A stretch of DNA of 64,000 nucleotides from a virus (IMGVR_UViG_2724679538_000004:32001-96000); one strand, 5' to 3'; shown: positions 8,769 to 47,903, counted from the stretch's first letter. Made by a program: numbers and translations. Notes: a model not told the origin generated them from the letters alone.

Positions 8769-8980
8769 TGGCGGTGACACTGGCAGGTCTGGAAATCGAG
8801 AAAACAAGCGGATACTGGCGTTCCAAAGGATTCAAAAAAGCCAGCATACAAGATCGGCTAGAGCGTGAAGATGGATACATCATCCACCAGCGCAAGGAGT
8901 GGAGAATGGTTGATCCTGAGACTGGTAAGCTCGCAACGAAGGCTCAGACACTCTGGGGTTTATTGAAGAAAATTCACTGA
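8768..8980 (+). CDS. hypothetical protein
   Basis: 70-aa ORF coupled to the preceding gene (ATAATG overlap). Confidence 0.45.
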   Translation: MAVTLAGLEIEKTSGYWRSKGFKKASIQDRLEREDGYIIHQRKEWRMVDPETGKLATKAQTLWGLLKKIH

Positions 8981-9036
8981 TAACACCAACCACTGCGGTG
9001 AGTAGTCTGCTCACCGCATTCGTATCCAGCTCATTA

Positions 9037-9468
9037 TCCACTGTAGTCAGTAACAAAACCTTCCTACATATCTGCTAACCACTGTAGCGAGTAGACAGCC
9101 TTTCATTCGCATCAAACAACCACTATGGTGAGTATTGGAGTGAGATGTCCAGCGGGTATCCACTATGGTGAGTAAGCCTTTGCTGTTTTCAGTGGATATC
9201 CACTCGCCACAGTGGATACGCTCAAAGATGAGGGCGACAACAACCACTATAGACAGTAAATTTTCCAAGATACCCAGTGACCACTAACCTCGCAGCCCTT
9301 GTTTCATCAGTGTTAGTGATCACTAACATTTAATTCAGTATTTGCATTCTACTGCCTACAGTGGTTATCAACAGATAACGATACTCACTATAGTGGATAG
9401 CGAATTACAGATATAAGTAAGGCTCACTACAGTGGATAGTGAGCCTTACTACTAACTACAGTGGTTGG
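9037..9468. repeat. iteron array (about 10 copies, core CCACT(A/G)TAGTGG) downstream of repA; incA-like copy-control locus
   Basis: Repeated CCACTGTAG / CACTATAGTGGATA / CACTACAGTGGATAG units seen directly in the sequence. Confidence 0.75.
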
Positions 9469-9469
9469 G

Positions 9470-10525
9470 CTATTTGCGAGTCTTTGCCTTGCGCAACTCT
9501 TCGAGAAGCGCCAGTTCTTCTTTACTCAACATGACCATTTTGCCTTCTTTTTCGTCAGGCGCAACGTCGATAATGTCATCTTGATTCTCATCTGGGAGGC
9601 TATATTCCGTCTCATCATTATCGATTTTTGTTGATATTTGTGCCTGGCGTAACTTTGGCCGCCTATAGTGGATGACGAAGTAGACCGAGTTTCCGCGCTT
9701 AACTTCCGTGTAATCGAGATATCCTATCTCTCGCAGCTGTTCCATAGCCTTTCTTACCGTCGCATTCTGAGTAATAGTGCGACTTGTCAGATTAAGTCTG
9801 GCGCGTAAACGGGCTAGTGATATTGGTGCCGGATCAGGCGGCAAACTTTCAATAAAAGTATAAAGCGCCTGAGCGGATTCTTTTCTTGAGAGTTCGTTTA
9901 TAGCCCGGAGTTGCAGAAGAACCTTTTTGTCGAACTGGTAGAGTTCGAAAATCTTGGGATCTGCTTTCAGTTCGACCGTATCGTGCTTGACACTATATTT
10001 TGCCGTTTGCACAAGATGCGTTACGTAAAACTCATCAGAGCCTTTGCTACGGAACGAGATGGTATTTGTGGCAATACGGCTTAGCGAACTGTCCAGGCGT
10101 TTGCGTAACTTCGCTGATGACCTGGCGGTCGGAATGCCACACAGCCTTACAAACTCAACGAACGGCAACGTGACGGTATCGCCAACGACCTTGTGTTTGG
10201 CAAACGCGTGGATTATTCCCACCCACGTTTTAAAGTCGTTATCCATATCAAGCCGAAGGCCAGAGATCCTTATGTCTTCGTACCCTTCTGCTTTTGCCAG
10301 AGACAGCTGTTTGAGTTCAGCAGAGGCATCCATAGAGACCATTTGCCCCTTTCTTCCTCTGGATGTCGATTTCAGCGTCGGAACGAAGAGGCCCAGACGC
10401 ATCAAAGCAACAGGCTGAACAGTGTTATTAGTGTTAGGAACCAACGTAACAACTTCGCCTGTCTTTTTATCTGTTTCTGAAAATGCTTCAACGATCGCTA
10501 TGTTTTTATTGCCGTTTTCGCTCAT
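9470..10525 (-). CDS. repA: plasmid-type replication initiator RepA (iteron-binding, winged-helix)
   Basis: 351-aa protein flanked on both sides by iteron arrays; basic C-terminus; architecture matches P1/F-type replicons. Confidence 0.75.
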
Positions 10526-10570
10526 TCCAAATGTCTCTTGTTATTCGACGGCTTTGGTGGCCTTTGCTGA

Positions 10571-10695
10571 TTACAGTGGATAGTAGCACTCATCACAGCG
10601 GTTATCCTACCGTCTATAGTGGTTTTTCTCCTCTCTATAGTGGTTGCTTTGCTCCCTATAGTGGATTATTTGCTCTCTATAGTGGATATCGATCA
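10571..10695. repeat. iteron array, 4-5 direct repeats of about 21 bp (core CTCTATAGTGG) upstream of repA
   Basis: ctatagtggtttttctcctctctatagtggttgctttgctccctatagtggattatttgctctctatagtggatat. Confidence 0.8.
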
Positions 10696-10699
10696 TGTC

Positions 10700-10955
10700 T
10701 GAAGGCAGATGGCACAACGGTTTGAGGTGGGCGGGGATCTTATTGGGTCTTTATGGGTCTCTTTGGTTCTCTTTGTGATCTGAATTACTGGATCGGGCCT
10801 GTGGATAAAAATCAGAGGATTACAAGAACAGGTAACTCTACTCTTCTGTGGATATTTAAGGACATAAGAATCATGACTAAGAGTAGAGTTTAAAATATAT
10901 CTATGTGTATCAGTATGTTAATGAAGAATTAAGTCATTAAGTTATCCATAAAAGA
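10700..10955. promoter_or_regulatory. AT-rich origin spacer with DnaA-box-like 9-mers (TGTGGATAA at 10800-10808; TGTGGATAT at 10855-10863; TTATCCATA at 10942-10950) and GGGTCT(C)TTT repeats
   Basis: Matches to the DnaA box consensus TTATCCACA on either strand, lying between two iteron arrays. Confidence 0.55.
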
Positions 10956-10961
10956 CAATGT

Positions 10962-11075
10962 GCTCTACTCTCTACAGTGGATATATACAGCTCTCCAGAG
11001 TGGTTGTTTTACTCTTCATAGCGGTTATTCTGCTCTCTACAGAGGTTACTTTGCTCTCCATAGTGGATGGCAACA
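10962..11075. repeat. iteron array, about 5 direct repeats (CTCTACAGTGG / CTCCAGAGTGG / CTCCATAGTGG)
   Basis: Direct repeats at about 22-bp spacing. Confidence 0.75.
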
Positions 11076-11100
11076 CCCTTTCAGACCAGTAACCGCAACG

Positions 11101-37475: not shown

Positions 37476-38105
37476 ATGACCACCTTTACTAAAGAACAAC
37501 TAATTGATCATATTAATGATCGCAAAGATGTCCGTCAGAGAATGTTGGAAACTGCGACGATTTCTTCTGGATTCAGAGAATATCTTGAAAGAGAGCTTGC
37601 CACCGATCGGATTGCCCTGGCGTCGCTGGAAGCAAAACCAATAGGTGCATTCCACATTGCAGAACAGCAAGTTGAAGGCACAAGTGACTATCTCAAGGAT
37701 GGAGAATGGCCTATTGATAATGGAATTATTGAGGTCTACGCCGCTCCACCCGTTCCAGTAGTACCGGAAGAAAAACCAATGCCTAATCCTCTTAGCATGT
37801 ACGCGGTTGATGCTGTTGCCGCTATTGCAGAGGTGAGAGGATGGAACGCCTGCCGCGCAGCCATACTTCAGAGTCAAGATAGGGGCATTAAGGATGCATG
37901 GATAAGCTGTAGTGAGCGAATGCCAGATGATGGTCAGCACGTAATTATTTTATGTGATGGCGCATTTGTTCTTTATGCGCAATATCGAGACGGTGAGTTT
38001 TTTGATGTCGTCCGTGATGGTGATGAATTTTTCGAAACGCAGAGCCGCAACGTCACACACTGGATGCAGCTACCAGAACCGCCGCAGGAGTCGAAGAGTG
38101 AATAA
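37476..38105 (+). CDS. hypothetical protein
   Basis: 209-aa ORF. Confidence 0.5.
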   Translation: MTTFTKEQLIDHINDRKDVRQRMLETATISSGFREYLERELATDRIALASLEAKPIGAFHIAEQQVEGTSDYLKDGEWPIDNGIIEVYAAPPVPVVPEEKPMPNPLSMYAVDAVAAIAEVRGWNACRAAILQSQDRGIKDAWISCSERMPDDGQHVIILCDGAFVLYAQYRDGEFFDVVRDGDEFFETQSRNVTHWMQLPEPPQESKSE

Positions 38106-38319
38106 AGCAGAGTTATTTCAGAAAATATCGGCTCTCGCGGCTGAATGCCACGCTATAGCATCTGAGCTTGATGTTGGCGACGAACGAACCGAGATGTTCG
38201 AAATATACAGTGTACTGCGCAATCTCTCTCGGCGTGGCTACGCCATTCAGGTAGGGCGAGTGACTAATCCACTACTCACATCATGTGATGAGGATGACCC
38301 GGATGAGGATGACGAATGA
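38098..38319 (+). CDS. hypothetical protein with acidic C-terminus
   Basis: GTG 38098 with GGAG 7 nt upstream; the longer track ORF would overlap the previous gene by 150 nt. Confidence 0.4.
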   Translation: MNKAELFQKISALAAECHAIASELDVGDERTEMFEIYSVLRNLSRRGYAIQVGRVTNPLLTSCDEDDPDEDDE

Positions 38320-38699
38320 TGAATAAATCAGTAGCCGGTGAGTTTCAGAAGGAAGTCGATAATACCACTGTTCTATTGGACGATATTTTAAGCATTCTCG
38401 CGCTGCTTGAGGCTGGAGAATGGTCAGAACATTGCACCAAAACAGAGCTAGGCGGTCGGCTTGAAAGAGAGATTACACGGCTGATTAGCGATGCCCAAAA
38501 TTATTTGTCACCTGAGAACCTCCCTTGCGATGTAGTCCTTGTGCCAGGGATGAGGATACACGAAGGTGTCAGAACGAAAACATTATTGACCGCATTACAG
38601 AGAAGAGCCGAATTAAAGTCGCGGGTTAAGTTGATGCCATCGAAAATGCTTGATGCCATCAAATTTACGCAATCGCAACATACTGAGAGAGATAAATGA
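38316..38699 (+). CDS. hypothetical protein
   Basis: 127-aa ORF, ATGA overlap with previous gene. Confidence 0.5.
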   Translation: MMNKSVAGEFQKEVDNTTVLLDDILSILALLEAGEWSEHCTKTELGGRLEREITRLISDAQNYLSPENLPCDVVLVPGMRIHEGVRTKTLLTALQRRAELKSRVKLMPSKMLDAIKFTQSQHTERDK

Positions 38700-39325
38700 G
38701 CACGGTAGCGAAAGATCTCACAGAAGATATTCTCAATGAAATTATTGCTGGCGCGAATACCTCGCTTGAACAATATCTTGCGTTGGCGCTAAGAGCCGAA
38801 CGTCGAGACAGAAAGCATTTTTATGAGCGATTACCAGGGAAGCGACCAGATAGATCAGATGAAGAAGGTAGCGATATAGACTACATGGAACCTTTAGATG
38901 TTTATCAACTTGGTAAAGATGATGGCTGGAACGCTTATCACGATGCTGTGTTGAAGTTGGATGAAAAAGTGAAACCTCTTTCGCGACCAGTAGATCACGG
39001 TTTTCGCGATAACTGCGAGTGCTCTAGTTGTCAGATCACGGCTCGTATTTGTTCCGAATTAACAGATAAGTCCACCCTAATCTACGAAGTTAATGTAGGC
39101 GGTAATACATGGGTCGAATGCACAAGAGCTGCATACGTAAGAGCAAAAGACAACGGCGAATTGACCAGAGTTGTTACCCATCACCCAAATAATGTGCTTA
39201 AAGATCACCAGATTCGAGAACTAGTGAATGAATTGCGGGATATTGCGGTTACGTATCACGGAACGCAGCAATTGCGGGAGAAGATTGCCAGAGCAGTGAA
39301 CAACTCAATCCGTCCAGAAAAATAA
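38696..39325 (+). CDS. hypothetical protein
   Basis: 209-aa ORF, ATGA overlap with previous gene. Confidence 0.5.
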   Translation: MSTVAKDLTEDILNEIIAGANTSLEQYLALALRAERRDRKHFYERLPGKRPDRSDEEGSDIDYMEPLDVYQLGKDDGWNAYHDAVLKLDEKVKPLSRPVDHGFRDNCECSSCQITARICSELTDKSTLIYEVNVGGNTWVECTRAAYVRAKDNGELTRVVTHHPNNVLKDHQIRELVNELRDIAVTYHGTQQLREKIARAVNNSIRPEK

Positions 39326-39329
39326 GTAA

Positions 39330-39795
39330 TAGTACGATAAAGAGGCCCCATGCTCTTGATGGGGCCTGTAGCAACAAGCGTTATGGACGTTGGTTTACGT
39401 ACTCAATGATCGCTTTGATAATCGCGAACATCGGCGGCACGATTTTGAAAAGTAAGTTAAGCATAACAGGCCTCACTTAGTTTTATCGCGCCTAGCTGCA
39501 AATACCTTTGAGCTTGCCTTTGCAGTTGCAATATCTGTAGTCGCCAGATACTTACGGCACGATTTCGAGTTAAGGTAAGGTTTGAGAGTCACCAAAAACC
39601 TGGACTTAAATCTTCTTTGAGAACAATGATGTTTAGTAAATGGTCATTGTTACTAGGTATGACCACTCTACGTTTCTTGATGAATCCAGTACATTCGGTT
39701 AATCTTAACTCAGTCGCCAGATACTTATGGCTCAGGAACAGAGACGCAAACTCCGTTTCCTTTTAAAAAGCCCGGTCTAGTCAACTGGGCTTTTT
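39330..39795 (+). ncRNA. candidate non-coding RNA locus ending at a rho-independent terminator (hairpin 39769-39791 plus T-run)
   Basis: No ORF of 60 aa or more in any frame; direct repeats AGTCGCCAGATACTTA(C/T)GG at about 39537 and 39712; hairpins at 39341-39367 and 39495-39526. Confidence 0.3.
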
Positions 39796-40090
39796 AATGT
39801 CTGCTTTTTAACCAAACATACCCTCAATACTGCAACATCAGTGTCTTGCGAATCAAGATAGTGTGTATAGATTTTTCATGCAAGTGCATAAGTCTGTGGA
39901 TAACTCAGGAAGGAAAAAGTGACTTCCGCGCACTTTAGGCCGGACAAGGCCTTCGAAAAAGTCAATGGGAAGAAAAAATTTGTTAAAAATAACGTTTGTT
40001 TGAATTGTATATTTTATACCTGTCAATAGTTAGCATCTTATTAACATCTTTTTTAAGAGACAGAGTTTAAAAACATGTCGCTCCAACATA

Positions 40091-40110
40091 TACTGTATGT
40101 ACATACAGTA
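40091..40110 (+). promoter_or_regulatory. LexA operator (SOS box) TACTGTATGTACATACAGTA
   Basis: Perfect CTGT-N8-ACAG palindrome 17 bp upstream of the humD-like start. Confidence 0.85.
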
Positions 40111-40126
40111 TTAAGAGGCGAGTATT

Positions 40127-40516
40127 ATGGGATTCCCATCTCCTGCAGCGGATTATGTTGAAAGCCGTATTTCTCTTGATCGGCAGATAATTAGACATCC
40201 TTCAGCGACCTACTTCCTGCGAGCGGCTGATAGCCATCACCGCGAAGGAATATTGCAGGGGGCGCTGCTGGTGGTCGATTCTTCACTAACTCCGGTTGAT
40301 GGTTCACTGCTTGTATGTGCTATTGATGGGGAATTTCGTGTAAAAAAATACCGTAAGTATCCGCGTCAGTACCTGGAGGATTTAAGAACTGGCAAGAAGG
40401 AAGCATTGCCAAAGGATGACGATGGATGCACTGGCAGTACTGCCGTGTTTGGTGTCATCACTCACATTATCAACGACGCAAGAAGTGGCGAATTTGATGA
40501 TTGTCCTGTGATGTAG
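40127..40516 (+). CDS. humD: UmuD'-like protein (P1 HumD-like; begins at the position equivalent to the UmuD cleavage site)
   Basis: N-terminus MGFPSPAADYVE matches UmuD residues immediately after the Cys24-Gly25 cleavage site; conserved VDGEF(R/T)VKK; preceded by a LexA box; no umuC neighbour. Confidence 0.8.
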   Translation: MGFPSPAADYVESRISLDRQIIRHPSATYFLRAADSHHREGILQGALLVVDSSLTPVDGSLLVCAIDGEFRVKKYRKYPRQYLEDLRTGKKEALPKDDDGCTGSTAVFGVITHIINDARSGEFDDCPVM

Positions 40517-40560
40517 ATAGAAAGCCCTCGTTTGTATGAGGGCTTCTAGGTAAACACAAA

Positions 40561-41304
40561 TCACTGCATGTTGCCGAATTTTTTGTTAAGGCTTTTTCGT
40601 ATTGTCTCTATGGTTTTCTCCCTATCTGAATATAGTTCGCTAACTACATAGTCCATAATCTCAAAAGCACCTTCGATATCTTTGATCCGAACTTCATCAA
40701 ACGTATGACTGCCTGCATTCCCCAAGAACTTTATCGCCAAAAGATTTTGAGCAAGTTTGCTGCCCTCTTCCGGGATTTTTTCGATACGATGGTGCAATCG
40801 GATTGTCTTACCTTTATCATTTTGCGTAGGTATCCCCATAGAGGTAAGGATATTTTCTACAGCGATTCTGATTAGGTTTGCTGCGGCACCTTGCTGCATT
40901 AAAAAAATGGAAAAAGCAGCTTTCAGGGGGCCACTTACTTCATCCGGGCAGTTCTCTGGAATTTGAAAAACATTCAAGGAAGGAACAAAGCAAAGAGGTT
41001 TGTACCATTGATAATATTCGTCTGCCATTTCCTCTGGTTGGTAATCTCTATCCCATCCTGCCTTTCCTACGCAGGCAACCGCTTCGCCACATTTTGCTCG
41101 TGAACATTTGGCCATACAGCTGAAATAGGACTCAGACATATCGTAATCAAACCAATCTTCATTTTGTGCTTTCCTGGTACCTAAAGACTCCTCTTCAACA
41201 AAACTATCTTGCATGATTTCCAGAGTCTTTTGTCCGCAGACCGGACAAGGCCAGTCCACATGTTTATCGCTGTAAAATCGATGGGAAATTTTATGAATAG
41301 CCAT
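40561..41304 (-). CDS. zinc-ribbon protein with C-terminal HEPN/DUF4145-like segment (tentative)
   Basis: N-terminal CPVCG ... CMAKCSRAKCGEAVAC zinc-ribbon pattern; C-terminal LLAIKFLGNAGSHTFDEV resembles the R/K-x-x-G-N-x-x-x-H helix pair of DUF4145-type HEPN domains; only reverse-strand gene in its neighbourhood. Confidence 0.5.
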   Translation of the reverse strand: MAIHKISHRFYSDKHVDWPCPVCGQKTLEIMQDSFVEEESLGTRKAQNEDWFDYDMSESYFSCMAKCSRAKCGEAVACVGKAGWDRDYQPEEMADEYYQWYKPLCFVPSLNVFQIPENCPDEVSGPLKAAFSIFLMQQGAAANLIRIAVENILTSMGIPTQNDKGKTIRLHHRIEKIPEEGSKLAQNLLAIKFLGNAGSHTFDEVRIKDIEGAFEIMDYVVSELYSDREKTIETIRKSLNKKFGNMQ

Positions 41305-41448
41305 TTATTTCGCTCCATGCATATTGGCCGAAATGAGTTCAAACGATACCAATATGAATAATAGATGCGTTACTTTAAGACACTGTGGATTAAATACAAA
41401 GCATGGCTACCAACAGAAGGAACAAAAGATACTGGTTACAAATACCCG

Positions 41449-41514
41449 TAAATAAATTGTTTTCTACCTTTTCTTAATTGTGATAATAAACCACACAAGA
41501 AAACAAATTGTTTA
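41449..41514 (+). promoter_or_regulatory. conserved promoter/operator block (second copy of the 35524-35580 element, ending in AGAAAACAAATTGTTTA)
   Basis: Near-identical to 35524-35580. Confidence 0.5.
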
Positions 41515-41526
41515 GGAGTGGCAAAA

Positions 41527-41826
41527 ATGCTGAACATTACCCAAGCCTACCAGGTGGCATTGATTAGTGCATCTCATACATCAGAGGAAGATGCTCGCCG
41601 ATTCATGATCGCAAGCAATGAGCTGGATTGGGTTTCACAAATTGACGGCGGTTGTATTGTCCACGCCTGGTTACAGGATGATGTCTGGAAAGACAACTTG
41701 CGTCGATATGGTATATCCGAAGGCGCAATTGCTAACATTCAGAAAGTACTTGATGTAGGCTTTGACTCTGTACATTTCGATTGTGGCGCACCGGTCGTTG
41801 AAGGGCTTGAGTGCTGGAACTGGTAA
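41527..41826 (+). CDS. hypothetical protein
   Basis: AGGAG 8 nt before ATG 41527. Confidence 0.5.
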   Translation: MLNITQAYQVALISASHTSEEDARRFMIASNELDWVSQIDGGCIVHAWLQDDVWKDNLRRYGISEGAIANIQKVLDVGFDSVHFDCGAPVVEGLECWNW

Positions 41827-41862
41827 TCCGGCAAACGTTCCATACTATGTAACGGAGAATTT

Positions 41863-42048
41863 ATGCTTAAAGAGGACTCATATCTACTAAAGGCGCTTGA
41901 AATGCGTGGCGTTGAACCTACAGTGAAAAACGCTCACGATATCTACCTTCAGTTTTCACCGGAGCTGAAACGGCTCATAAATCAATACGGGGTTAATGAC
42001 TCAAGTGTTAAAGCAATGATAGATGATGAATTAGACCATCTCATCTAA
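41863..42048 (+). CDS. hypothetical small protein
   Basis: GGAG 6 nt before the ATG; 61 aa. Confidence 0.45.
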   Translation: MLKEDSYLLKALEMRGVEPTVKNAHDIYLQFSPELKRLINQYGVNDSSVKAMIDDELDHLI

Positions 42049-42200
42049 TCGTTTCCTATGATAATGGTTTTCACTTTGAGATTGTTATTTTTCATAGCCA
42101 AAGCTGATGTTTGTGGAAGGTGGATTGATAAACGGATGCGTATTTAGGTTATACAAGTGAGAAAATTGATAATATATAAACGCGATTTTTATGTGATGGA

Positions 42201-42770
42201 ATGGATGTAATGGAAACCCAGAACCAACAAACAAAACCTCTGAATAACATTTATGCGTGGATTCTAGCGTTCATGCCTTTCTTCTTTGCAGTATCGCCGG
42301 AAGAGTATACCAATTACGCTATTATAATTGGGGGTGTAACTACCATCGGTTTGTTAGTAGCTGACAGAATGGCTCTATCGGAGTCTGGCTGTGAACCACC
42401 TTCAATTCTATGGGGGGTATTCCTCCTGCCTGTCTATCTCTGGAAGCGCGCGACTATTACAAAAGGCAGCAGAGTGCCATTTATCATAATCGTTGCGTCG
42501 CTGGCTTGGGTTATCTTCATCGGCATCCCACACAAGGACGAGGTTGCTCTTGAAGAAGCAGCCTGCCCTCTCGTGACAACTATTCTGAAAGAGAATAACG
42601 GTTCGACTGCACCAAAATGTATGAAGGTGACAATAGAGGACAAGGTGACGGATAAGTTCTATAGAGCAACGGCTACACTAGACAATGGTAATGACATTAA
42701 CATTACTCTGGAACTTACCGGCGACAGGAACTTCTACGTCCGTGTTCCAAATGTTTATCTGAACAACTAA
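42201..42770 (+). CDS. integral membrane protein (about 3 TM segments) with C-terminal soluble domain
   Basis: Hydrophobic segments IYAWILAFMPFFFAV, AIIIGGVTTIGLLV, FIIIVASLAWVIFIG. Confidence 0.5.
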   Translation: MDVMETQNQQTKPLNNIYAWILAFMPFFFAVSPEEYTNYAIIIGGVTTIGLLVADRMALSESGCEPPSILWGVFLLPVYLWKRATITKGSRVPFIIIVASLAWVIFIGIPHKDEVALEEAACPLVTTILKENNGSTAPKCMKVTIEDKVTDKFYRATATLDNGNDINITLELTGDRNFYVRVPNVYLNN

Positions 42771-42889
42771 CGGTTGCAACTTATTGATAATGGCGGTCAC
42801 AATTTGATTCTTTTCTATAAGAATCCGTTGATCGCCACTACTCCCCTTCCATACCTGCAACCACATCCTTAAATATCAATTAGTTATAG

Positions 42890-43766
42890 TTGTTTATACC
42901 AATAAGAAAACAACTAAATAACAGATCAACGAAATGTCAATGCTTTCGCCCGATTTGGTCTATAAAATTGACGTTTTCACACATCACTTCTTATACCCGC
43001 AATCCTACGCAGCAGACAGCGCCACAGCGTCCAATTTTCACCACAGATGACCCAACAACTACCAATAAAAACACACGCTCAAAATCGCTCCCGTTGCGTT
43101 ACACAACCATATAAACAACTTGTTTTCAGGCATAACAAAACAACTAAATAACACATATGCCATTCCCCAAAACAACCAACCTCTTTATGGCAGGCTACCG
43201 AAAAGACCCACCTCTTCTTCCCAGGCTACCGGACAACCAACCTAACTTTCACAGGCAATTCGAAACCTCCATACGCGCGATACCCACGACACGCCATTCC
43301 CCAAATAGCGAAGAACCACCGAAACCCCAACGAAGCTTGTAACCGCAAGGATTTCCTCAATCCCAAAAGACACGAAACAGAACATTCGAGGGAAACGCCA
43401 TTACCCAATACACGAATAACTACAAAAGCCTTTCACGCACTCCATACAAGCAACTCAAACACAATAACGAAAGGAATCGCCCACCTGCCATTACTCCATA
43501 CACGGAGAAGAACAATCACCAAAACGTCGAGAACAACCCAGAGAAGAACCACCGCAAAACGAACGAAACCATATAAACCGACAGAGAGAACTACACACCC
43601 AATTCACCAACAGAAATAGTCGCCGTATAGAACGTTCAGGGAGGAGTGAGTATTAACGCCTATAGAGAGCTTGAGACAGATAAAACACGAAGAAAACACA
43701 ACATGTATAACGGAGAAGCCAGGTATGTATAAGTGGGGAGTGGAGGAGGGGTGTCGCCTCCTTTTT
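42890..43766 (+). ncRNA. A+C-rich, G/T-poor tract with ~100-bp-spaced GCCATT(A/C)CCCAA-type repeats; candidate long non-coding RNA(s) ending at hairpin GGAGG-loop-CCTCC plus T5 (43742-43766)
   Basis: Strong strand-asymmetric composition; promoter-like AAAACAACTAAATAACA at about 42913 and 43138; only low-complexity ORFs without RBS. Confidence 0.3.
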
Positions 43767-43830
43767 CGTATTTATTCAACTCCTGATTTTATCCCCCCGT
43801 AAAACCCCTACGGTCAGCCTTCGGTCCATA

Positions 43831-43970
43831 CAGGGAAAAGGTTGCATCCCGCTACAGAAACGGCTGGGTTGCCTTCGGGGAACGGCTGGAGGTTTTCAGG
43901 GAAACGGTCGAGTTGCCTGTGTGGGTTTCGGGAAAAGGCTCGATGCCGGTTCAGGAACGGTGGCGTACCG
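43831..43970 (+). repeat. array of about six ~21-bp direct repeats with core (C)AGGGAAA(A/C)GG / GGGAACGGCT (GGA-rich)
   Basis: cagggaaaaggttgcatccc, cagaaacggctgggttgcc, ggggaacggctggagg, cagggaaacggtcgagttgcc, cgggaaaaggctcgatgcc, caggaacggtggcgtaccgg. Confidence 0.6.
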
Positions 43971-44295
43971 GTATAGCGAGAGGGAGAGTTGCGGCTACCC
44001 ACCTGTAATGTGCGGGAAGAAGGGAGACTCTCACGTATAGGCGAACCTACTTCCCGCTGGATTCCCTCTGAATGCCCAGCTACAGCGTAATTGTGCCAGA
44101 CAGTCCGCGGGTCACAATCGATTTCAGTAGGTTTTCGGGGAGAGGATTATTCTGCCCACCAGCTCCCTGCGGCCAGTAAATCAGAATAATGTAAAAAGTG
44201 CCCACGGTACTGAACCTGAAAAGTCACTACTAAAACTGCATTTACCGGAATAAAACTCTTTTTCACCTATGTGTTATTGCGATAATAACACCAAC

Positions 44296-44313
44296 GAGAA
44301 AACAAGTTGTTTA
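44296..44313 (+). promoter_or_regulatory. promoter/operator motif GAGAAAACAAGTTGTTTA
   Basis: Palindromic AAACAA-N-TTGTTT core immediately upstream of RBS GGAG. Confidence 0.45.
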
Positions 44314-44323
44314 CGGAGTGGTA

Positions 44324-44635
44324 ATGAATACCTCATTGGTTCTTGGTCTTGCAGAAGGTCAGGACAGAAAAGAAAAGCCAACTTTGATGGGACACCTCAC
44401 ATTGTTGGATATCGTAGCGAACGGAACTTCTATTCGACTGTTTCGTGAAAAAGCTATTACCTTCGACAAAGTGAATTTAACGCGCTATGTGATGGTTGTT
44501 CGTCGCCAGCGAGGAAGAGGGTGGATGTCAGTTCAGAAAATGTGGCCAGAGGACCAGCTTGAACTGGCACTGATGGAAGTGAACCGCGTAGCCCAGCAAG
44601 AAATCCAACGAGCTTCTGTTCAGGCAGTGGCTTAA
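44324..44635 (+). CDS. hypothetical protein
   Basis: GGAG 5 nt before ATG 44324. Confidence 0.5.
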   Translation: MNTSLVLGLAEGQDRKEKPTLMGHLTLLDIVANGTSIRLFREKAITFDKVNLTRYVMVVRRQRGRGWMSVQKMWPEDQLELALMEVNRVAQQEIQRASVQAVA

Positions 44636-44761
44636 GCATGTGCAAGCAGTAGTTAGTCGAGTGTACGACAGCCCTGATTCCTTACAGGGCTTTTTTGTAT
44701 TGTAAGTAACTACTTACAATAATAGAATTACCTCGTTCGTTAACTTACATACAGGGAGAGT

Positions 44762-45160
44762 ATGATGAGCGTAAAACGCGAAAACCTGACAATCGATATG
44801 TACTATGCCTCTGAAAAAGCAGAAGACGAAGCGGTTGCAAAAATTACCGTGATGATTCGTGACAATGAATCTGGTGCAGAGGTACAAACAAGCACTCTTG
44901 TACGCACAGGAACAGGCGAAGAGGCGACTTATGCCGTCGGCTATCAGAATATCAACGATGCCACGGACCCGCTGTTACTTAAACTGGAAAACCACTTCCG
45001 CAGTGTCGATAAGGTGCTTTTTGAGAAGCTGATGGAAGCCGTGGATGAGGTGTATACCTCAAACCTCAACAGCAATACTACCTGGATGGGACAGTATGGC
45101 CTGCGAATTACCACCGGCGCTCAAGTAGAAACCGTCATCCCCGAAAGCGTATTCGCTTAA
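44762..45160 (+). CDS. hypothetical protein
   Basis: GGGAGAG RBS; 132 aa. Confidence 0.5.
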   Translation: MMSVKRENLTIDMYYASEKAEDEAVAKITVMIRDNESGAEVQTSTLVRTGTGEEATYAVGYQNINDATDPLLLKLENHFRSVDKVLFEKLMEAVDEVYTSNLNSNTTWMGQYGLRITTGAQVETVIPESVFA

Positions 45161-45277
45161 TCCTCTTTGAATGGCGCGTAAACCGCGCCATTTTCTTATG
45201 CCCGATAACAATTTGTTTTCTGCCTTATCTGATTTGTGAAAATGATTTCACTGAAGCAACTTAATAAGGAAACCATC

Positions 45278-45652
45278 ATGGAACTTGATATCTATATCGA
45301 GACGCAGCCTAAAAACGATCTGAATAACGAGGAATCCAGAAGACAGGTTGCTTACTTCCGCAAGTTCAATGCGCTCGTTGGGTGGATGGAGCGCAACGTA
45401 GGTGAAGTCGAAAATTGTGAGCTTTTAGAATTAACGATGAATGACATTTGTTTTCTGAAAGCTCATTTGATGCACATAAACGAAAGTAATTGCGAAGAGT
45501 ACTTACCTACACAGGAAGGGTTTTTCTTCGGCAGTCAGGAGTACGATGAAGGTTACTGGCATGACGTGGATAAGCTGAAAAAACTGGTGGAAGACCTGAT
45601 TAGGAACCACGACTTCCACAATAACAGACTGACATTTTGCGCCTGGTGGTAA
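45278..45652 (+). CDS. hypothetical acidic protein
   Basis: AAGGAAA RBS before ATG 45278. Confidence 0.5.
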   Translation: MELDIYIETQPKNDLNNEESRRQVAYFRKFNALVGWMERNVGEVENCELLELTMNDICFLKAHLMHINESNCEEYLPTQEGFFFGSQEYDEGYWHDVDKLKKLVEDLIRNHDFHNNRLTFCAWW

Positions 45653-45989
45653 ATATGGGGGATTTTAGAAAGCGTCTTAAGGAAAGAACTGAGCAGGCCA
45701 GGAGGCAAAACGCGTTTTCTGTTATCCGGTACGCGAAACAATTCAGTCGGAACAACAAGTCAGTTGAGGAAAAGATCCTCAGCGTAATAGGACGATAATT
45801 ATTGAGGCTACCAGCATGGATAGCCTCACTGACTTTTCTTATAACCGAAGGTTAGTTTTGAAACCTGGCTAATGACTTCCAGTACCTGTCTTGATAATTC
45901 AGCCTGCATTAACTTCTTTTCTGCCTTATCTACACTGCGATAATTACACCAACAAGAAAACAACATGTTTACGCAGTGAGGATATGCAC

Positions 45990-46271
45990 ATGACTGATTT
46001 CACCATTACTACCAAAGCACAAAATGTATTCCTTGAATCATGGCTGGACTTGCCGGAAACAGAACAGCAAGAAATGGATCATGTGGAATATGACGAGCAG
46101 GTAAGCACGCGATTCTTCCACTTTGAGGGCTGCGTTTACGATATTGCCGACTTCATGCGAGATGACCGCTTCCCTGAATGGCACGCAAGCTATCCACTTA
46201 ACGCCTTCGCCATGCTGATGATCCGTGTGGATGACTCAGGGGATACCATCGATGTCGGTTTGCTCCACTAA
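45990..46271 (+). CDS. hypothetical acidic small protein
   Basis: GAGGA RBS 8 nt before ATG 45990; 93 aa. Confidence 0.5.
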   Translation: MTDFTITTKAQNVFLESWLDLPETEQQEMDHVEYDEQVSTRFFHFEGCVYDIADFMRDDRFPEWHASYPLNAFAMLMIRVDDSGDTIDVGLLH

Positions 46272-46301
46272 ATAATAAGGGACCACCAGCATTGGTGGCT
46301 C

Positions 46302-46574
46302 TTATATCATTTTTGCGAGCTTATTCATTTTGGTGAAGTCAATTGGCAATTCGGCCAAAGGTATCAAATAGTCTTTTTGTGCCCAGAAGTTTGGAGATCT
46401 GCCCACTACATACGAAAGCCGATAAGCGTCTTCATCGGTAATCGGCTTTCTTTGTTCTAGTATAGCTTCAGCATAGTCGATACTAACCGCCATGCTGCGA
46501 GCCAATAATTCAACCCCAATACCGTAATCGTCATAAATGGCATCAAGAAATTTTTTCACATCAAGTTGGGACAT
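46302..46574 (-). CDS. XRE/HigA-like helix-turn-helix regulator (tentative)
   Basis: GRSPNFWAQKDY resembles the G-x-S-P-x-F-W motif of HigA/VapI-type HTH proteins. Confidence 0.45.
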   Translation of the reverse strand: MSQLDVKKFLDAIYDDYGIGVELLARSMAVSIDYAEAILEQRKPITDEDAYRLSYVVGRSPNFWAQKDYLIPLAELPIDFTKMNKLAKMI

Positions 46575-46769
46575 ATGATTATCTCCTCAAATAAGCCAAG
46601 TTTTTATTATATAACGATATTTTTCGATTGTGGGTAATATGATTACACCCGCAGGCTAAAAACACCAACCTCTTACCTCCAGGCTACCGATTAACCCACC
46701 TGTTCCCGTCCGGCTACCGCAACTTTCCACTTTGACGCCTTATTCGTACAACGATAATTAACACCAACA

Positions 46770-46786
46770 AGAAAACAATTTGTTAT
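46770..46786 (+). promoter_or_regulatory. promoter/operator motif AGAAAACAATTTGTTAT
   Basis: Same element family as 44296, 45204, 45954. Confidence 0.45.
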
Positions 46787-46805
46787 TTACGATAAGGAAT
46801 TAATC

Positions 46806-47288
46806 ATGAATTTTATCGTTACTGTAAACGCACCCGCACATGGCAATATCGCTGTAACGTTCTCTGACATTGAAAAACGAGTACTTGGTGCATGGCGCGA
46901 CAATGAGACGGTAGAACTGTCAGCACAAGAAAAATGCATTATTGCACGCGACATCATTGGTAATCGTCGTTACTCGCGGGTATTTGAGAAAGCGTATGTG
47001 GTAAATTCTGGATTCGGAACGTTCGTCTTTCCGGTGCGCTCCGGGCGATTCTGCCAGTCCAAGCTGATTGAGTTCGCTACGCAGATTTCTGTCTGGATTA
47101 AAACTCAATCGTCGTTCAAATTTTCCGACGATGAAGCAGTATCGCAGGGGATGCGGATCGCCAACAATGCGATAAAATGCAAAAACATTACGTATGCCGC
47201 TGGCGTTGACACATGGAAACTGTTTTGCGCTAACTTTATGCTGAATGTATACGCAAGCAACCGCATCCACATCCTTGATGGCGTGTAA
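46806..47288 (+). CDS. hypothetical protein
   Basis: AAGGAAT RBS; 160 aa. Confidence 0.5.
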   Translation: MNFIVTVNAPAHGNIAVTFSDIEKRVLGAWRDNETVELSAQEKCIIARDIIGNRRYSRVFEKAYVVNSGFGTFVFPVRSGRFCQSKLIEFATQISVWIKTQSSFKFSDDEAVSQGMRIANNAIKCKNITYAAGVDTWKLFCANFMLNVYASNRIHILDGV

Positions 47289-47294
47289 CTGAGA

Positions 47295-47320
47295 AGAGGG
47301 CCAGAAACGGCCCTTTCTCT
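47295..47320 (+). terminator. rho-independent terminator (AGAGGGCC-AGAAAC-GGCCCTTT)
   Basis: Hairpin with T-rich tail after the stop at 47288. Confidence 0.6.
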
Positions 47321-47324
47321 ATAG

Positions 47325-47455
47325 CCACCAGCTGCCGCAGGGAAATTTTCAGAAACGGCGAGGAACGCATTCATGAACCGACGGGAAACGGCCAAGATTT
47401 TTTCGGGAAACGGCTGCATTCGCCTTTATGTAGAAAAACATCGGGAAGCTGGTGG
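47325..47455 (+). repeat. second GGA-rich repeat array (GGGAAATTTTC, AGAAACGGCG, GGGAAACGGCC, GGGAAACGGCT) enclosed by 9-bp inverted repeat CCACCAGCT / AGCTGGTGG
   Basis: Same core motif as the 43831-43970 array; flanking inverted repeat about 110 nt apart. Confidence 0.6.
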
Positions 47456-47880
47456 AATCCAACCAGCGGTTGTCGGACAGGTGAGCGCGGAAAATAATGA
47501 TGACTTTCGTCGCCTGAGACATACAGATTTCTTTCATAGCGTAATCACATACGTGATTAAGTAGTGTGATTATGTGAAAAATCACGCGCACATAATACGC
47601 GAGCGGATAAAGAACAACACAAAATGCCGATCCGCGCCGACAAATAAACGCGGATCACATAGCAAGACTAATAACCAATGATTAGCCATACATTATAACG
47701 CAATATAACGCGATTTAAGCGCGTTAATGTGTTAAGTAATGGGTATGTACTGGTAAGGATGTAAAAGCGCGTCTATGGTGTTATTTTGGCGCTTATTTTT
47801 ATGTTGTTGGAGTGAGTCAAAGACAATAAAAAAACGCGCCATTGATGGCGCGTTATTGTGGAAGTATTGGAAACGAAAAA

Positions 47881-47899
47881 AGCGCCCATAGTGGGCGCT
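47881..47899. terminator. hairpin AGCGCCCATAGTGGGCGCT flanked by A-run and T-run (bidirectional)
   Basis: Identical copy at 48151-48168; lies at the 3' end of the minus-strand gene 47904..48134. Confidence 0.6.
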
Positions 47900-47903
47900 C
47901 GAT

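What the first reader, a model, noticed from the sequence alone, without database searches (positions are those of the whole stretch)
42890..43766. A+C-rich, G/T-depleted tract with periodic repeats, promoter-like motif and a terminator: candidate long non-coding RNA
Across roughly 0.7 kb the + strand is made almost entirely of A and C, which is very unusual for this otherwise balanced genome. It contains repeats of GCCATT(A/C)CCCAA-type units at about 100-bp spacing (near 43160, 43290, 43395, 43487). It is preceded twice by AAAACAACTAAATAACA (about 42913 and 43138), a variant of the element found upstream of protein genes here, and it ends at a GGAGG-loop-CCTCC hairpin followed by TTTTT. The only ORFs are low-complexity Pro/Thr/Asn-rich frames without ribosome-binding sites. 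An unstructured CA-rich transcript could act as a protein-binding or decoy RNA; a DNA-level role such as a single-strand initiation site or protein-binding array is the alternative.
Basis: partly seen in the sequence, partly recalled or inferred. Interest (0 to 1): 0.7.

Follow-up and report, generated by a model that had tools for sequence, protein, structure and literature searches.

The report
Conserved unstructured A+C-rich non-coding tract
A 0.6-0.8 kb stretch with no genes, rich in A and C on one strand, is kept in every intact SSU5/pHCM2-type phage-plasmid examined; it most likely acts as a one-way barrier to transcription between a variable cargo region and the phage's early genes, but no experiment has tested this.

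Summary
Window 43000-43630 is 72% A+C on the + strand, against a window mean of 50% (sd 3%). It is also the longest C>G run in the 64 kb on either strand. The window is an SSU5/pHCM2-like phage-plasmid.

The tract lies in a 1.55 kb gene-free gap (42771-44317). All 61 intact relatives have it, and its composition is kept even where the sequence has turned over. It is not protein-coding, and its + strand RNA would have almost no structure.

One repeat type (31 bp) also sits between two divergent promoters 3.5 kb away, so it is a DNA operator. Published RNA-seq of a 94% identical relative shows more than 97% loss of transcript right after the upstream cargo gene, and near silence in lysogens.

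My best reading (confidence about 0.35) is a Rho-loading transcription barrier with embedded operators. The rivals are a lytic-phase RNA that soaks up a host factor (0.2) and a purely DNA-level protein-binding array (0.2). The tract is unannotated, matches no Rfam family, and did not turn up in my literature searches.

The parts
42771..42845 (+). Left-border block. Conservation among relatives starts sharply here, right after the stop codon of whatever cargo gene lies upstream. It contains a hairpin at 42806-42825 (GATTCTT-TTCTAT-AAGAATC) with no U-run after it.
   Evidence: Alignment of 8 lineages. A hairpin around UCUAUAAGA can form in almost every lineage variant, but with different stems; the 50-nt segments fold at -4.8 to -11.7 kcal/mol, except one variant, L050, at -1.3. 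These energies are not clearly above chance.
42826..42999 (+). G-poor, C-rich leader between the hairpin and the A+C-rich core. It holds the strongly conserved 'block 2'.
   Evidence: G is 0.07-0.17 in 60-nt windows from 42800 onward. One search lists many invariant columns here.
42904..42923 (+). Operator-like half-site A (AAGAAAACAACTAAATAACA).
   Evidence: Exact 17-mer match. The hexamer at the position where family promoters carry their -10 is GTTGTT, matching 2 of 6.
42968..42997 (+). Invariant TTGACG-N18-TATACC. It could be a sigma-70/sigma-S type promoter with C at -7, or a protein-binding site. It overlaps the right arm of the inverted repeat GTCAAT (42936-42941) / ATTGAC (42967-42972).
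   Evidence: Invariant in 8 lineages (columns T198-T207 and T219-C228). T depletion starts just downstream. The consensus promoter scan does not call it.
43000..43630 (+). A+C-rich, G/T-depleted core: non-coding, with a nearly unstructured + strand.
43113..43153 (+).
   Evidence: The palindrome has 35 matches in the window against 3.7 expected. It sits just downstream of the -10 at many small-gene promoters. Site C has no -10.
43167..43258 (+). Three tandem 31-nt repeats (ACCnACCTCTT-N5-CAGGCTACCG-N4). I infer they are DNA operators.
   Evidence: The same unit occurs at 46651-46720 between divergent promoters, in the E. coli, Salmonella and Klebsiella lineages, always in the same orientation.
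43159..43515 (+). Four GCCATTMC-headed units, at 43159, 43293, 43397 and 43487. The last three extend to about 29 nt (GCCATTACnCnATACACGGAGAAGAAC). The binding partner is unknown.
   Evidence: Every lineage has 3-6 copies, all on the + strand, with spacings that show no helical phasing. No other copy exists in SSU5 or Cyrano genomes.
43742..43769 (+). Hairpin plus T-run, an intrinsic-terminator-like element that closes the tract.
   Evidence: Homologous hairpins fold at -7.8 to -17.5 kcal/mol in six lineages. The U-rich tail is present in the E. coli, Klebsiella and Cronobacter lineages but not in the Salmonella/Citrobacter lineage.
43833..43975 (.). Six iteron-like GGGAAAMGG repeats spaced 22, 22, 22, 31 and 22 bp. 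They flank the tract and are probably a separate DNA-level element of the same regulatory region.
   Evidence: A second cluster lies at 47304-47425. The region shows no significant RNA structure (z = +1.2 and -0.1).
46651..46720 (.). Second cluster of the 31-bp repeat, between the HTH gene 46302-46574 (-) and the promoter of gene 46806 (+).
   Evidence: The HTH assignment comes (phrog_1381, 'plasmid antitoxin with HTH domain').

Best explanation
The tract is a conserved, non-coding element that acts in cis, and its functional form is the + strand transcript.

Any RNA polymerase leaving the variable cargo genes upstream has just passed a stop codon. In 9 of 11 annotated relatives those genes are + oriented and end within about 25 nt of the conserved border. 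The polymerase then transcribes a small hairpin (42806-42825) and about 800 nt of untranslated, G-poor, C-rich and almost structure-free RNA. That is the defining substrate for loading of the host termination factor Rho.

Rho ends the transcript, and exonucleases trim the RNA back to the hairpin. The hairpin plus U-run at 43742-43769 stops any polymerase that escapes. The result is an insulator that works whatever cargo is present. It keeps cargo transcription in the lysogen from running into the operator-controlled early genes that start at 44318.

DNA operators are embedded in the same stretch: AAGAAAACAA half-sites, the AAACAAnTTGTTT palindrome and the 31-bp repeats. They tie the region into the phage-plasmid's repressor network.

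Shown: the composition, the non-coding status, the conservation, the lack of structure, the operator duplication, and the drop in transcript. Inferred: Rho involvement, the insulator role, and which proteins bind.
For: 1. The tract is the most extreme C>G, A+C-rich stretch in the window.
2. It is not translated.
3. The + strand RNA folds at -0.11 to -0.18 kcal/mol per nt, against about -0.28 for controls and -0.23 to -0.31 for the - strand, in 10 relatives.
4. Composition is kept in variable columns and in all 61 intact relatives.
5. The layout is stop codon, then a hairpin without a U-run, then C-rich RNA. E. coli Rho-dependent 3' ends are reported to have this architecture (PMC6061677).
6. 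In E. coli LF82 carrying Cyrano, which is 94% identical, CYRAN_102 gives 45-590 FPKM while CYRAN_103 (about window 42890-43246) gives 0-14 FPKM. That is a drop of about 87% or more in every sample and more than 97% in nine of ten (PMC9928086, S1 Table).
7. The upstream genes vary (type I R-M, DUF262, GIY-YIG, Ivy and others) and mostly point into the tract.
8. The downstream genes carry their own TGnGATAAT promoters with operators.
Against: - A Rho-loading (rut) site needs only about 80 nt, not 600-800.
- U depletion and the conserved GCCATTAC repeats are not needed for Rho loading.
- The transcript drop is already complete in the first 350 nt, so the core may be redundant for this role.
- The block-1 hairpin is weak and its stems are not homologous pair by pair.
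- Two lineages have a - oriented gene upstream.
- There is no direct evidence that Rho acts here.
- Whether the RNA-seq counting was strand-specific is unknown to me.
- A 208-nt C>G stretch at 46601-46807 lies largely in the untranscribed spacer between divergent promoters, so DNA motifs alone can give some skew in this genome.
Confidence: 0.35

Rival explanations
1. A non-coding RNA made in the lytic phase and acting in trans. A + strand transcript of about 750 nt would start near 43004, from the invariant TTGACG-N18-TATACC, and end at the 43742-43769 hairpin. It would be kept free of structure so that it can act as a lattice or sponge for a factor that binds single-stranded RNA. Candidates are Rho itself, the phage's gp32-like SSB, Hfq, ribosomal protein S1, or a G/U-rich small RNA such as GcvB. 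The GCCAUUAC units would be the specific binding sites.
For: - The candidate -35/-10 is invariant exactly where T depletion begins.
- Hairpins rich in G-U pairs form only on the + strand at the 3' end.
- There are 4-6 direct GCCATTAC copies, all on one strand, without helical phasing.
- Depletion of both G and U is what abolishes all base pairing.
- Silence in lysogens is compatible with lytic-only expression.
Against: - The -10 has C at the critical -7 position, and the promoter scan does not call it.
- No expression data exist for the lytic cycle.
- GGA, ARN and YC motifs are not enriched beyond composition.
- The only 10-nt match to the complement of the GcvB R1 region (that sequence recalled from memory) lies in an insertion specific to the E. 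coli lineage (read).
- The 31-nt repeats inside the tract are DNA operators.
- A fully unstructured RNA should be very short-lived.
Confidence: 0.2
2. A purely DNA-level nucleoprotein region. It would be an array of directly repeated binding sites for phage regulators or replication proteins: the 31-bp units, the GCCATTAC units, the operator half-sites and the adjacent 22-bp iteron-like repeats. It might pair or loop with the second copy of the same motifs 3.47 kb away, or serve as a lytic origin or centromere-like site. The strand bias would be a by-product of same-orientation A+C-rich motifs and their degenerate copies.
For: - Both the 31-bp and the 22-bp repeats occur in two clusters about 3.47 kb apart in all lineages. 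The 22-bp spacing is identical in the E. coli and Salmonella lineages.
- The second 31-bp cluster lies between divergent promoters.
- Spacings of 31 and 22 bp correspond to about 3 and 2 helical turns.
- There is no significant RNA structure in 43770-44240.
Against: - Double-stranded binding sites do not explain why variable spacer columns stay 65% A+C, or why the bias spans 600 nt.
- GCCATTAC spacings (41-144 bp) show no helical phasing.
- GC content is 47%, so the tract is not an easily melted unwinding element.
- RepA and its own, different 21-bp iterons lie 33 kb away.
- No initiator or partition gene is recognisable nearby.
Confidence: 0.2
3. A low-complexity Pro/Thr/Asn/Lys-rich protein, or several small ones, is encoded in the tract. 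The Cyrano record annotates it this way (CYRAN_103, CYRAN_104).
For: Open frames of 61-155 aa exist in the window, and of 97 aa in several Salmonella/Citrobacter-lineage relatives. GenBank record OV696614 calls two CDSs here.
Against: - There is no third-position excess of substitutions in four clades (p = 0.18-0.95). Four flanking genes give p = 1e-14 to 3e-4.
- Frame boundaries shift from 27 to 221 aa among close relatives, and most frames have no ATG or NTG start.
- Indels of 8 and 11 nt separate lineages.
- PGAP calls no gene across most of the gap: none in the window-lineage records or in 243 E. coli plasmids, and only isolated small ORFs (51-81 aa, - strand) in three relatives.
Confidence: 0.02
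4. The tract has no function of its own. It is a relic of amplified A+C-rich repeats, or the result of a local strand-biased mutation pressure.
For: The tract contains several families of degenerate direct repeats. Within-clade diversity (pi = 0.029) falls between neighbouring genes' codon positions 1-2 and position 3, so purifying selection is not demonstrated by that test.
Against: - The tract is present in all 61 intact relatives across at least 8 lineages that share only 51-83% identity, with the same boundaries and blocks of invariant sequence.
- The skew (GC skew -0.45) is far larger than known mutational strand biases (from established knowledge).
- The only loci without the tract are 12-29 kb deletion derivatives.
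Confidence: 0.05

Closest known systems
Rho utilisation (rut) sites of Rho-dependent terminators (for example lambda tR1, and E. coli terminators mapped by Term-seq, PMC6061677)
   Same: Untranslated, C-rich, G-poor RNA with little structure, lying immediately downstream of a stem-loop that has no U-tract. Transcript abundance drops sharply there.
   Different: The tract is about ten times longer than a rut site needs to be. It is also depleted in U and rich in A. It carries conserved repeated motifs and DNA operators. Dependence on Rho is untested.
Protein-sponge RNAs: CsrB/CsrC/RsmZ (CsrA) and Pseudomonas CrcZ (Hfq/Crc 'CA motifs')
   Same: A non-coding stretch of several hundred nt with one short motif repeated 4-6 times on one strand, ending at a terminator-like hairpin.
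   Different: GGA and ARN motifs are not enriched beyond composition. The motifs are not presented in hairpin loops. The tract has no demonstrated promoter, is silent in lysogens, and matches no Rfam family.
Immunity-region control in other phage-plasmids and satellites (P4 CI RNA with premature termination in the leader, which I recall as Rho-dependent; P1 c4; N15 CA RNA)
   Same: A long untranslated leader in a regulatory region, with repeated sequence elements and premature termination used to keep lytic genes off (from my own knowledge of these systems).
   Different: There is no sequence similarity. No small processed RNA or pairing partner was identified here, and the repeats that recur elsewhere lie in untranscribed DNA.
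Paired operator clusters that loop (lambda OL/OR, coliphage 186 flanking sites) and iteron arrays of plasmid origins
   Same: The same binding motifs occur in two clusters 3.47 kb apart, with spacings of 22 and 31 bp between direct repeats.
   Different: These features do not explain the 600-nt strand bias. No binding protein has been identified. The RepA iterons of this element have a different sequence and lie elsewhere.
Rho-antagonising RNA element (RARE) of Salmonella mgtCBR
   Same: An RNA that engages Rho in order to change termination (recalled from the literature, not checked here).
   Different: RARE is short and structured and prevents termination. There is no evidence that the tract traps Rho.

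Membership tests
Rho-dependent terminator / rut region | C exceeds G over at least about 80 nt of the transcript | tested here: met
   C/G = 2.37 over 42830-43640. This is the longest C>1.5G run in the window on either strand.
Rho-dependent terminator / rut region | RNA with little secondary structure | tested here: met
   -0.116 kcal/mol per nt, against about -0.28 for three control segments. The same holds in 10 relatives.
Rho-dependent terminator / rut region | Not translated | tested here: met
   No codon periodicity and no conserved ORF or start codon.
Rho-dependent terminator / rut region | Transcribed on that strand, with RNA 3' ends at an upstream protective stem-loop | tested here: inconclusive
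   The upstream + gene is expressed, and signal falls by more than 97% in nine of ten samples within about 110 nt. A hairpin is present. No 3'-end mapping or per-base strand data are available.
Rho-dependent terminator / rut region | Termination relieved by bicyclomycin or rho mutation | not testable with these tools
   This needs an experiment.
CsrA/RsmA sponge RNA | Many GGA motifs, mostly in hairpin loops | tested here: not met
   5 GGA observed against 3.7 expected from composition. The tract has almost no hairpins.
Hfq-binding sponge (CrcZ-like) | Repeated A-R-N / AAnAAnAA tracts above background | tested here: not met
   ARNx3: 3 observed against 3.9 expected. ARNx4: 1 against 0.8.
Any curated RNA family (Rfam 15) | Covariance-model match | tested here: not met
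   No match at E<=1 in 40000-47000, on either strand.
Protein-coding gene | Excess of third-position substitutions and a conserved frame with a start codon | tested here: not met
   with positive controls.
Promoters of this phage-plasmid family (TGnGATAAT-N9-AAGAAAACAAnTTGTTT) | Extended -10 hexamer 9 nt upstream of AAGAAAACAA, and the palindromic right half | tested here: not met
   Sites 42904 and 43134 have GTTGTT and CTTGTT (2 of 6) at the -10 position, and CTAAATAACA in place of nTTGTTT.
Intrinsic terminator | G+C-rich hairpin followed by a U-run | tested here: met
   43742-43769 in the window. The hairpin is kept in all lineages, but the U-run is not kept in the Salmonella/Citrobacter lineage.
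Iteron-type replication origin | Tandem 17-22 bp direct repeats next to an initiator gene, an A+T-rich unwinding element and DnaA boxes | tested here: inconclusive
   The 22-bp repeats at 43833-43975 meet the first criterion. No initiator was recognised nearby. The tract is 47% G+C, so it is not A+T-rich. The RepA iterons differ. DnaA boxes were not searched systematically.

The most novel reading that the evidence does not exclude
During lytic growth the phage-plasmid makes a + strand RNA of about 750 nt (about 43004-43769) that is deliberately free of structure and rich in C and A. This RNA would titrate a host factor that binds single-stranded RNA. The most attractive candidate is Rho itself, which would give genome-wide anti-termination without a protein such as Psu or N. 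The GCCAUUAC repeats would be the high-affinity sites. This would be a new class of phage-encoded RNA decoy, present in several hundred plasmids of E. coli, Klebsiella, Salmonella and Enterobacter.
Probability: 0.12. Interest if true: 0.8.

Novelty: new variant of a known kind. Interest (0 to 1): 0.55.

Why it matters
SSU5/pHCM2-like phage-plasmids are common in clinical Enterobacteriaceae. The tract was found in 835 PLSDB plasmids and in 243 of 5,426 complete E. coli genomes. These elements carry defence and resistance cargo in a hotspot that ends exactly at this region.

If the tract is a universal insulator, it would explain how arbitrary cargo can be expressed in the lysogen without switching on the lytic genes. 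It would also be a portable, orientation-dependent genetic part. If it is instead an RNA decoy or part of a lytic origin, it would reveal an unknown control layer of this family.

Either way, 1.5 kb of strongly conserved DNA in these plasmids currently carries no functional annotation. Annotation pipelines either leave it blank or call spurious ORFs.

Tried and rejected
- Rfam scan of 40000-47000: no match.
- Tandem Repeats Finder: nothing found, because the repeats are too diverged.
- Protein-coding reading: rejected.
- CsrA, Hfq and YC motif enrichment: none beyond composition.
- GcvB-sponge idea: the only 10-nt match to the complement of the R1 region (a sequence I recalled from memory) is in an E. 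coli-specific insertion, so I did not pursue it.
- Conserved RNA structure in the 5' part (42895-43165): alifold gives only -1.8 and -2.9 kcal/mol on the + strand.
- Structured RNA in the G+C-rich 43770-44240: z = +1.2 and -0.1.
- RepA iterons as the identity of the 22-bp repeats: the sequences differ.
- A shared 'TATAAG' late-promoter-like motif: no common context.
- Helical phasing of the GCCATTAC copies: none.
- Test for purifying selection by within-clade diversity: inconclusive, because neighbouring genes differ five-fold, probably through mosaic recombination.
- Chi plus GT-rich RecA-loading model: the orientation of the Chi site at 44156 does not fit, so I dropped it.
- Pfam and PHROGs on ten neighbouring proteins: only an HTH antitoxin-like hit, DUF5983 and a generic 'DNA binding protein' hit (phrog_1305) for the DUF4145-like gene 40561-41304.
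- Literature: I found no lytic-cycle transcriptome of an SSU5-like element. A 2026 preprint on phage-plasmid heteroresistance could not be opened.
- Natural variants without the tract turned out to be large deletion derivatives, so they say nothing about dispensability.

Full report
**What the window is**

The region matches Escherichia phage Cyrano (OV696614, 94%), Salmonella phage SSU5 and several hundred IncFIB(pHCM2)-type plasmids. The window is therefore an SSU5/pHCM2-like phage-plasmid. It encodes a Rep_3 initiator at 9470-10525 (-), flanked by its own 21-bp iterons. It also encodes T4-like gp32, RecA-like and SbcCD-like proteins.

The finding lies in a 1.55 kb gap, 42771-44317. NCBI's annotation pipeline calls no gene there in the window-lineage records and at most one small - strand ORF (51-81 aa) in three other relatives. 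The Cyrano record calls two short hypothetical CDSs there.

The + strand of 43016-43615 is 72.2% A+C. The 600-nt windows of the whole 64 kb average 50.0% (sd 3.1%), and no other window departs by more than 8.5 points. G is depleted from about 42800 and T from about 43000, and the core ends near 43630.

The stretch 42907-43641 is the longest run with C>1.5G in the window on either strand. The four GCCATTMC copies, the two exact 17-mers and the hairpin plus T-run at 43742-43769 are all present.

**The tract is conserved as a composition, not only as a sequence**

I collected 60 distinct homologues from annotated plasmids, one-genome-per-species assemblies and IMG/VR. They fall into eight lineages that share 51-83% identity: E. 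coli, Salmonella/Citrobacter/Enterobacter/Kluyvera/Buttiauxella, Klebsiella, Cronobacter and others. All have 63-75% A+C over the homologous 500 nt.

In five full-length lineages, invariant columns are 76% A+C and variable or indel columns are still 65% A+C. Among 67 further loci found through a downstream gene, 61 have the tract 1.7-4.7 kb upstream. The six that lack it, fully or in part, include four that I examined and found to be deletion derivatives missing 12-29 kb of phage genes; the other two were a truncated contig and a near-duplicate locus. The tract is on plasmids in 243 of 5,426 complete E. coli genomes, and no feature is annotated under the match in the eight records listed.

**It is not a gene**

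Variable columns show no three-base periodicity in four clades (p = 0.18-0.95 for the tract). Four neighbouring genes tested the same way give p from 3e-4 to 1e-14. The open frames change length from 27 to 221 aa among close relatives, and most have no ATG, GTG or TTG. Indels of 8 and 11 nt separate lineages.

**The + strand would be almost unfolded as RNA**

The predicted folding energy of 43160-43630 is -0.116 kcal/mol per nt on the + strand. It is -0.258 on the - strand and about -0.28 for control segments. Ten relatives behave the same way. The energy is what the composition predicts (z = -0.5). The composition itself is therefore the 'design': removing both G and U removes G-C, G-U and A-U pairs. 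This points to a single-stranded form of the + strand as the functional molecule.

The palindrome AAACAAnTTGTTT is eight-to-nine-fold over-represented in the window (35 matches against 3.7 expected). At real promoters it follows an extended -10, in the form TGnGATAAT-N9-AAGAAAACAAnTTGTTT, then an SD sequence and ATG. That position is typical of an operator.

The two 17-mers keep only AAGAAAACAA. At the -10 position they have GTTGTT or CTTGTT, and they lack the right half of the palindrome. I read them as auxiliary operator half-sites.

A different promoter candidate exists. TTGACG (42968-42973)-N18-TATACC (42992-42997) is invariant in all eight lineages and sits exactly where T depletion begins. 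However, it has C at the critical -7 position.

**Some of the repeats act on DNA**

The 31-nt unit ACCnACCTCTT-N5-CAGGCTACCG occurs three times in the tract (43167-43258). It recurs at 46651-46720, in the spacer between the promoter of an HTH antitoxin-like gene (46302-46574, - strand; its TATAAT lies near 46606) and the TTGAC/GATAAT promoter of gene 46806. The orientation is the same, and the arrangement is found in the E. coli, Salmonella and Klebsiella lineages. That spacer is not expected to be transcribed, so this motif is a DNA operator.

Just right of the tract are six GGGAAAMGG repeats spaced 22, 22, 22, 31 and 22 bp (43835-43975). A second cluster lies at 47304-47425, and the spacing is identical in the Salmonella lineage. 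Both motif types thus occur in pairs 3.47 kb apart.

The GCCATTAC units are different. There are 3-6 direct copies (4-6 in most relatives), all on the + strand, spaced 41-144 bp without helical phasing, and found nowhere else in SSU5 or Cyrano.

**Expression data**

The LF82 study re-mapped RNA-seq onto Cyrano (PMC9928086). The cargo gene CYRAN_102 ends 4 nt before the conserved border and gives 45-590 FPKM across ten samples. CYRAN_103 corresponds to about window 42890-43246 and gives 0 FPKM in both LB samples and 1.5-14 FPKM elsewhere. CYRAN_104 (the hairpin and 22-bp repeat region) and the early genes beyond it are at background.

Two conclusions follow. The region is silent in lysogens, and transcripts from the cargo gene disappear within about 110 nt.

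**Context**

The sequence left of 42771 differs completely between relatives. It carries type I R-M, DUF262, a GIY-YIG nuclease, Ivy, MetRS and others, and conservation begins abruptly at CGTTGACATTGGCGGTCAC. In 9 of 11 annotated relatives the last cargo gene is + oriented and stops within about 25 nt of that border.

Directly after the border, almost every lineage variant can form a small hairpin around UCUAUAAGA with no U-run after it. C-rich, G-poor sequence follows. E. coli Rho-dependent transcripts are reported to end just downstream of such stem-loops, with the rut site immediately beyond (PMC6061677).

**Interpretation**

The best-supported model is a transcription barrier that does not depend on the cargo. 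Polymerases leaving the cargo hotspot transcribe untranslated, unstructured, C-rich RNA. Rho loads and terminates. The RNA is trimmed back to the hairpin, and the hairpin plus U-run at 43742-43769 is a backstop. The embedded operators link the region to the repressor network.

The composition, the non-coding status, the conservation, the lack of structure, the DNA nature of the 31-bp repeats and the drop in transcript are shown. Rho involvement and the insulator role are inferred. I give this model 0.35.

It does not explain the length of the tract, the U depletion or the GCCATTAC repeats. Those features keep two rivals alive at about 0.2 each:
- A lytic-phase RNA of about 750 nt acting as a sponge or lattice, made from the invariant -35/-10 candidate.
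- A purely DNA-level array, serving as looping operators, a lytic origin or a centromere-like site.

Protein coding (0.02) and 'no function' (0.05) are unlikely.

**Novelty**

No Rfam family matches. No paper found by my searches describes the tract. Databases leave it unannotated or call spurious ORFs. If it is a rut-type barrier, it is an unusually large and elaborate variant of a known kind. If it is an RNA decoy, it would be a new kind of phage-encoded RNA.

Noticed in passing
window 43833-43975 and 47296-47425: Two clusters of iteron-like GGGAAAMGG direct repeats. The first has six copies spaced 22, 22, 22, 31 and 22 bp. The second has four copies. They lie 3.47 kb apart, and the spacing is identical in the Salmonella lineage. 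They differ from the RepA iterons, and their binder and role (lytic origin, looping or centromere) are unknown.
   Followed up: partly
window 46640-46760: A second cluster of the 31-bp ACCnACCTCTT-N5-CAGGCTACCG repeat lies between divergent promoters of an HTH antitoxin-like gene (46302-46574, - strand) and gene 46806-47288. It looks like the operator region of a local regulator. The HTH gene is missing in some relatives (L125, L140, L147), while the repeats remain.
   Followed up: partly
window, at least 12 sites (for example 7428, 19140, 29538, 31093, 41497, 44296, 45954, 46769, 56715/56744): A family-wide promoter/operator module, TGnGATAAT-N9-AAGAAAACAAnTTGTTT, sits in front of many small genes of unknown function. 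The palindrome has 35 matches against 3.7 expected. Some promoters also carry an inverted copy (AAATAAATTGTTTTCTA) at about -35 to -50 (35524, 41450, 45206).
   Followed up: partly
window 8980-9470 and 10560-11090: The plasmid replicon. A Rep_3 initiator gene at 9470-10525 (-) is flanked by about 25 copies of a 21-bp-spaced iteron (CTCTCTATAGTGGATA), in opposite orientations on the two sides.
   Followed up: partly
window, whole (for example 44156 -, 47325 -, 47448 +): There are 16 Chi octamers (GCTGGTGG), eight per strand, in 64 kb, where about 2 are expected by chance. This density is similar to that of the E. coli chromosome. One inverted pair brackets the second 22-bp repeat cluster.
   Followed up: no
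window about 38000-42770, with the left border at 42771: A cargo hotspot. The genes left of the conserved border differ completely among relatives (type I R-M, DUF262, a GIY-YIG nuclease, Ivy, MetRS/ApbC, S24 peptidase, DUF4145). A fragment carrying DUF262, R-M genes and the first about 450 nt of the non-coding region has also moved to large non-phage Klebsiella plasmids (L012).
   Followed up: partly
loci L125, L140/L144, L147: These IMG/VR contigs are deletion derivatives of SSU5-like elements. They lack 12-29 kb (window about 16.7-45.9 kb, 28.0-44.3 kb and 31.7-43.7 kb). One deletion endpoint (43727) coincides with the right end of the tract.
   Followed up: partly
window 47430-47900: Another gene-free stretch of about 470 bp. 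It has nested inverted repeats (AATCACATACGTGATT, GTGTGATTATGTGAAAAATCACGCGCACATAA) and two terminator-like GC hairpins. It is probably a further operator or regulatory region.
   Followed up: no
window 43653-43715: A purine/A-rich insertion of about 40-60 nt is specific to the E. coli lineage of the tract. It contains AACACAACAT, which is complementary to the G/U-rich R1 region of the host small RNA GcvB as I recall that sequence. Because it is not conserved, this is probably coincidence.
   Followed up: partly
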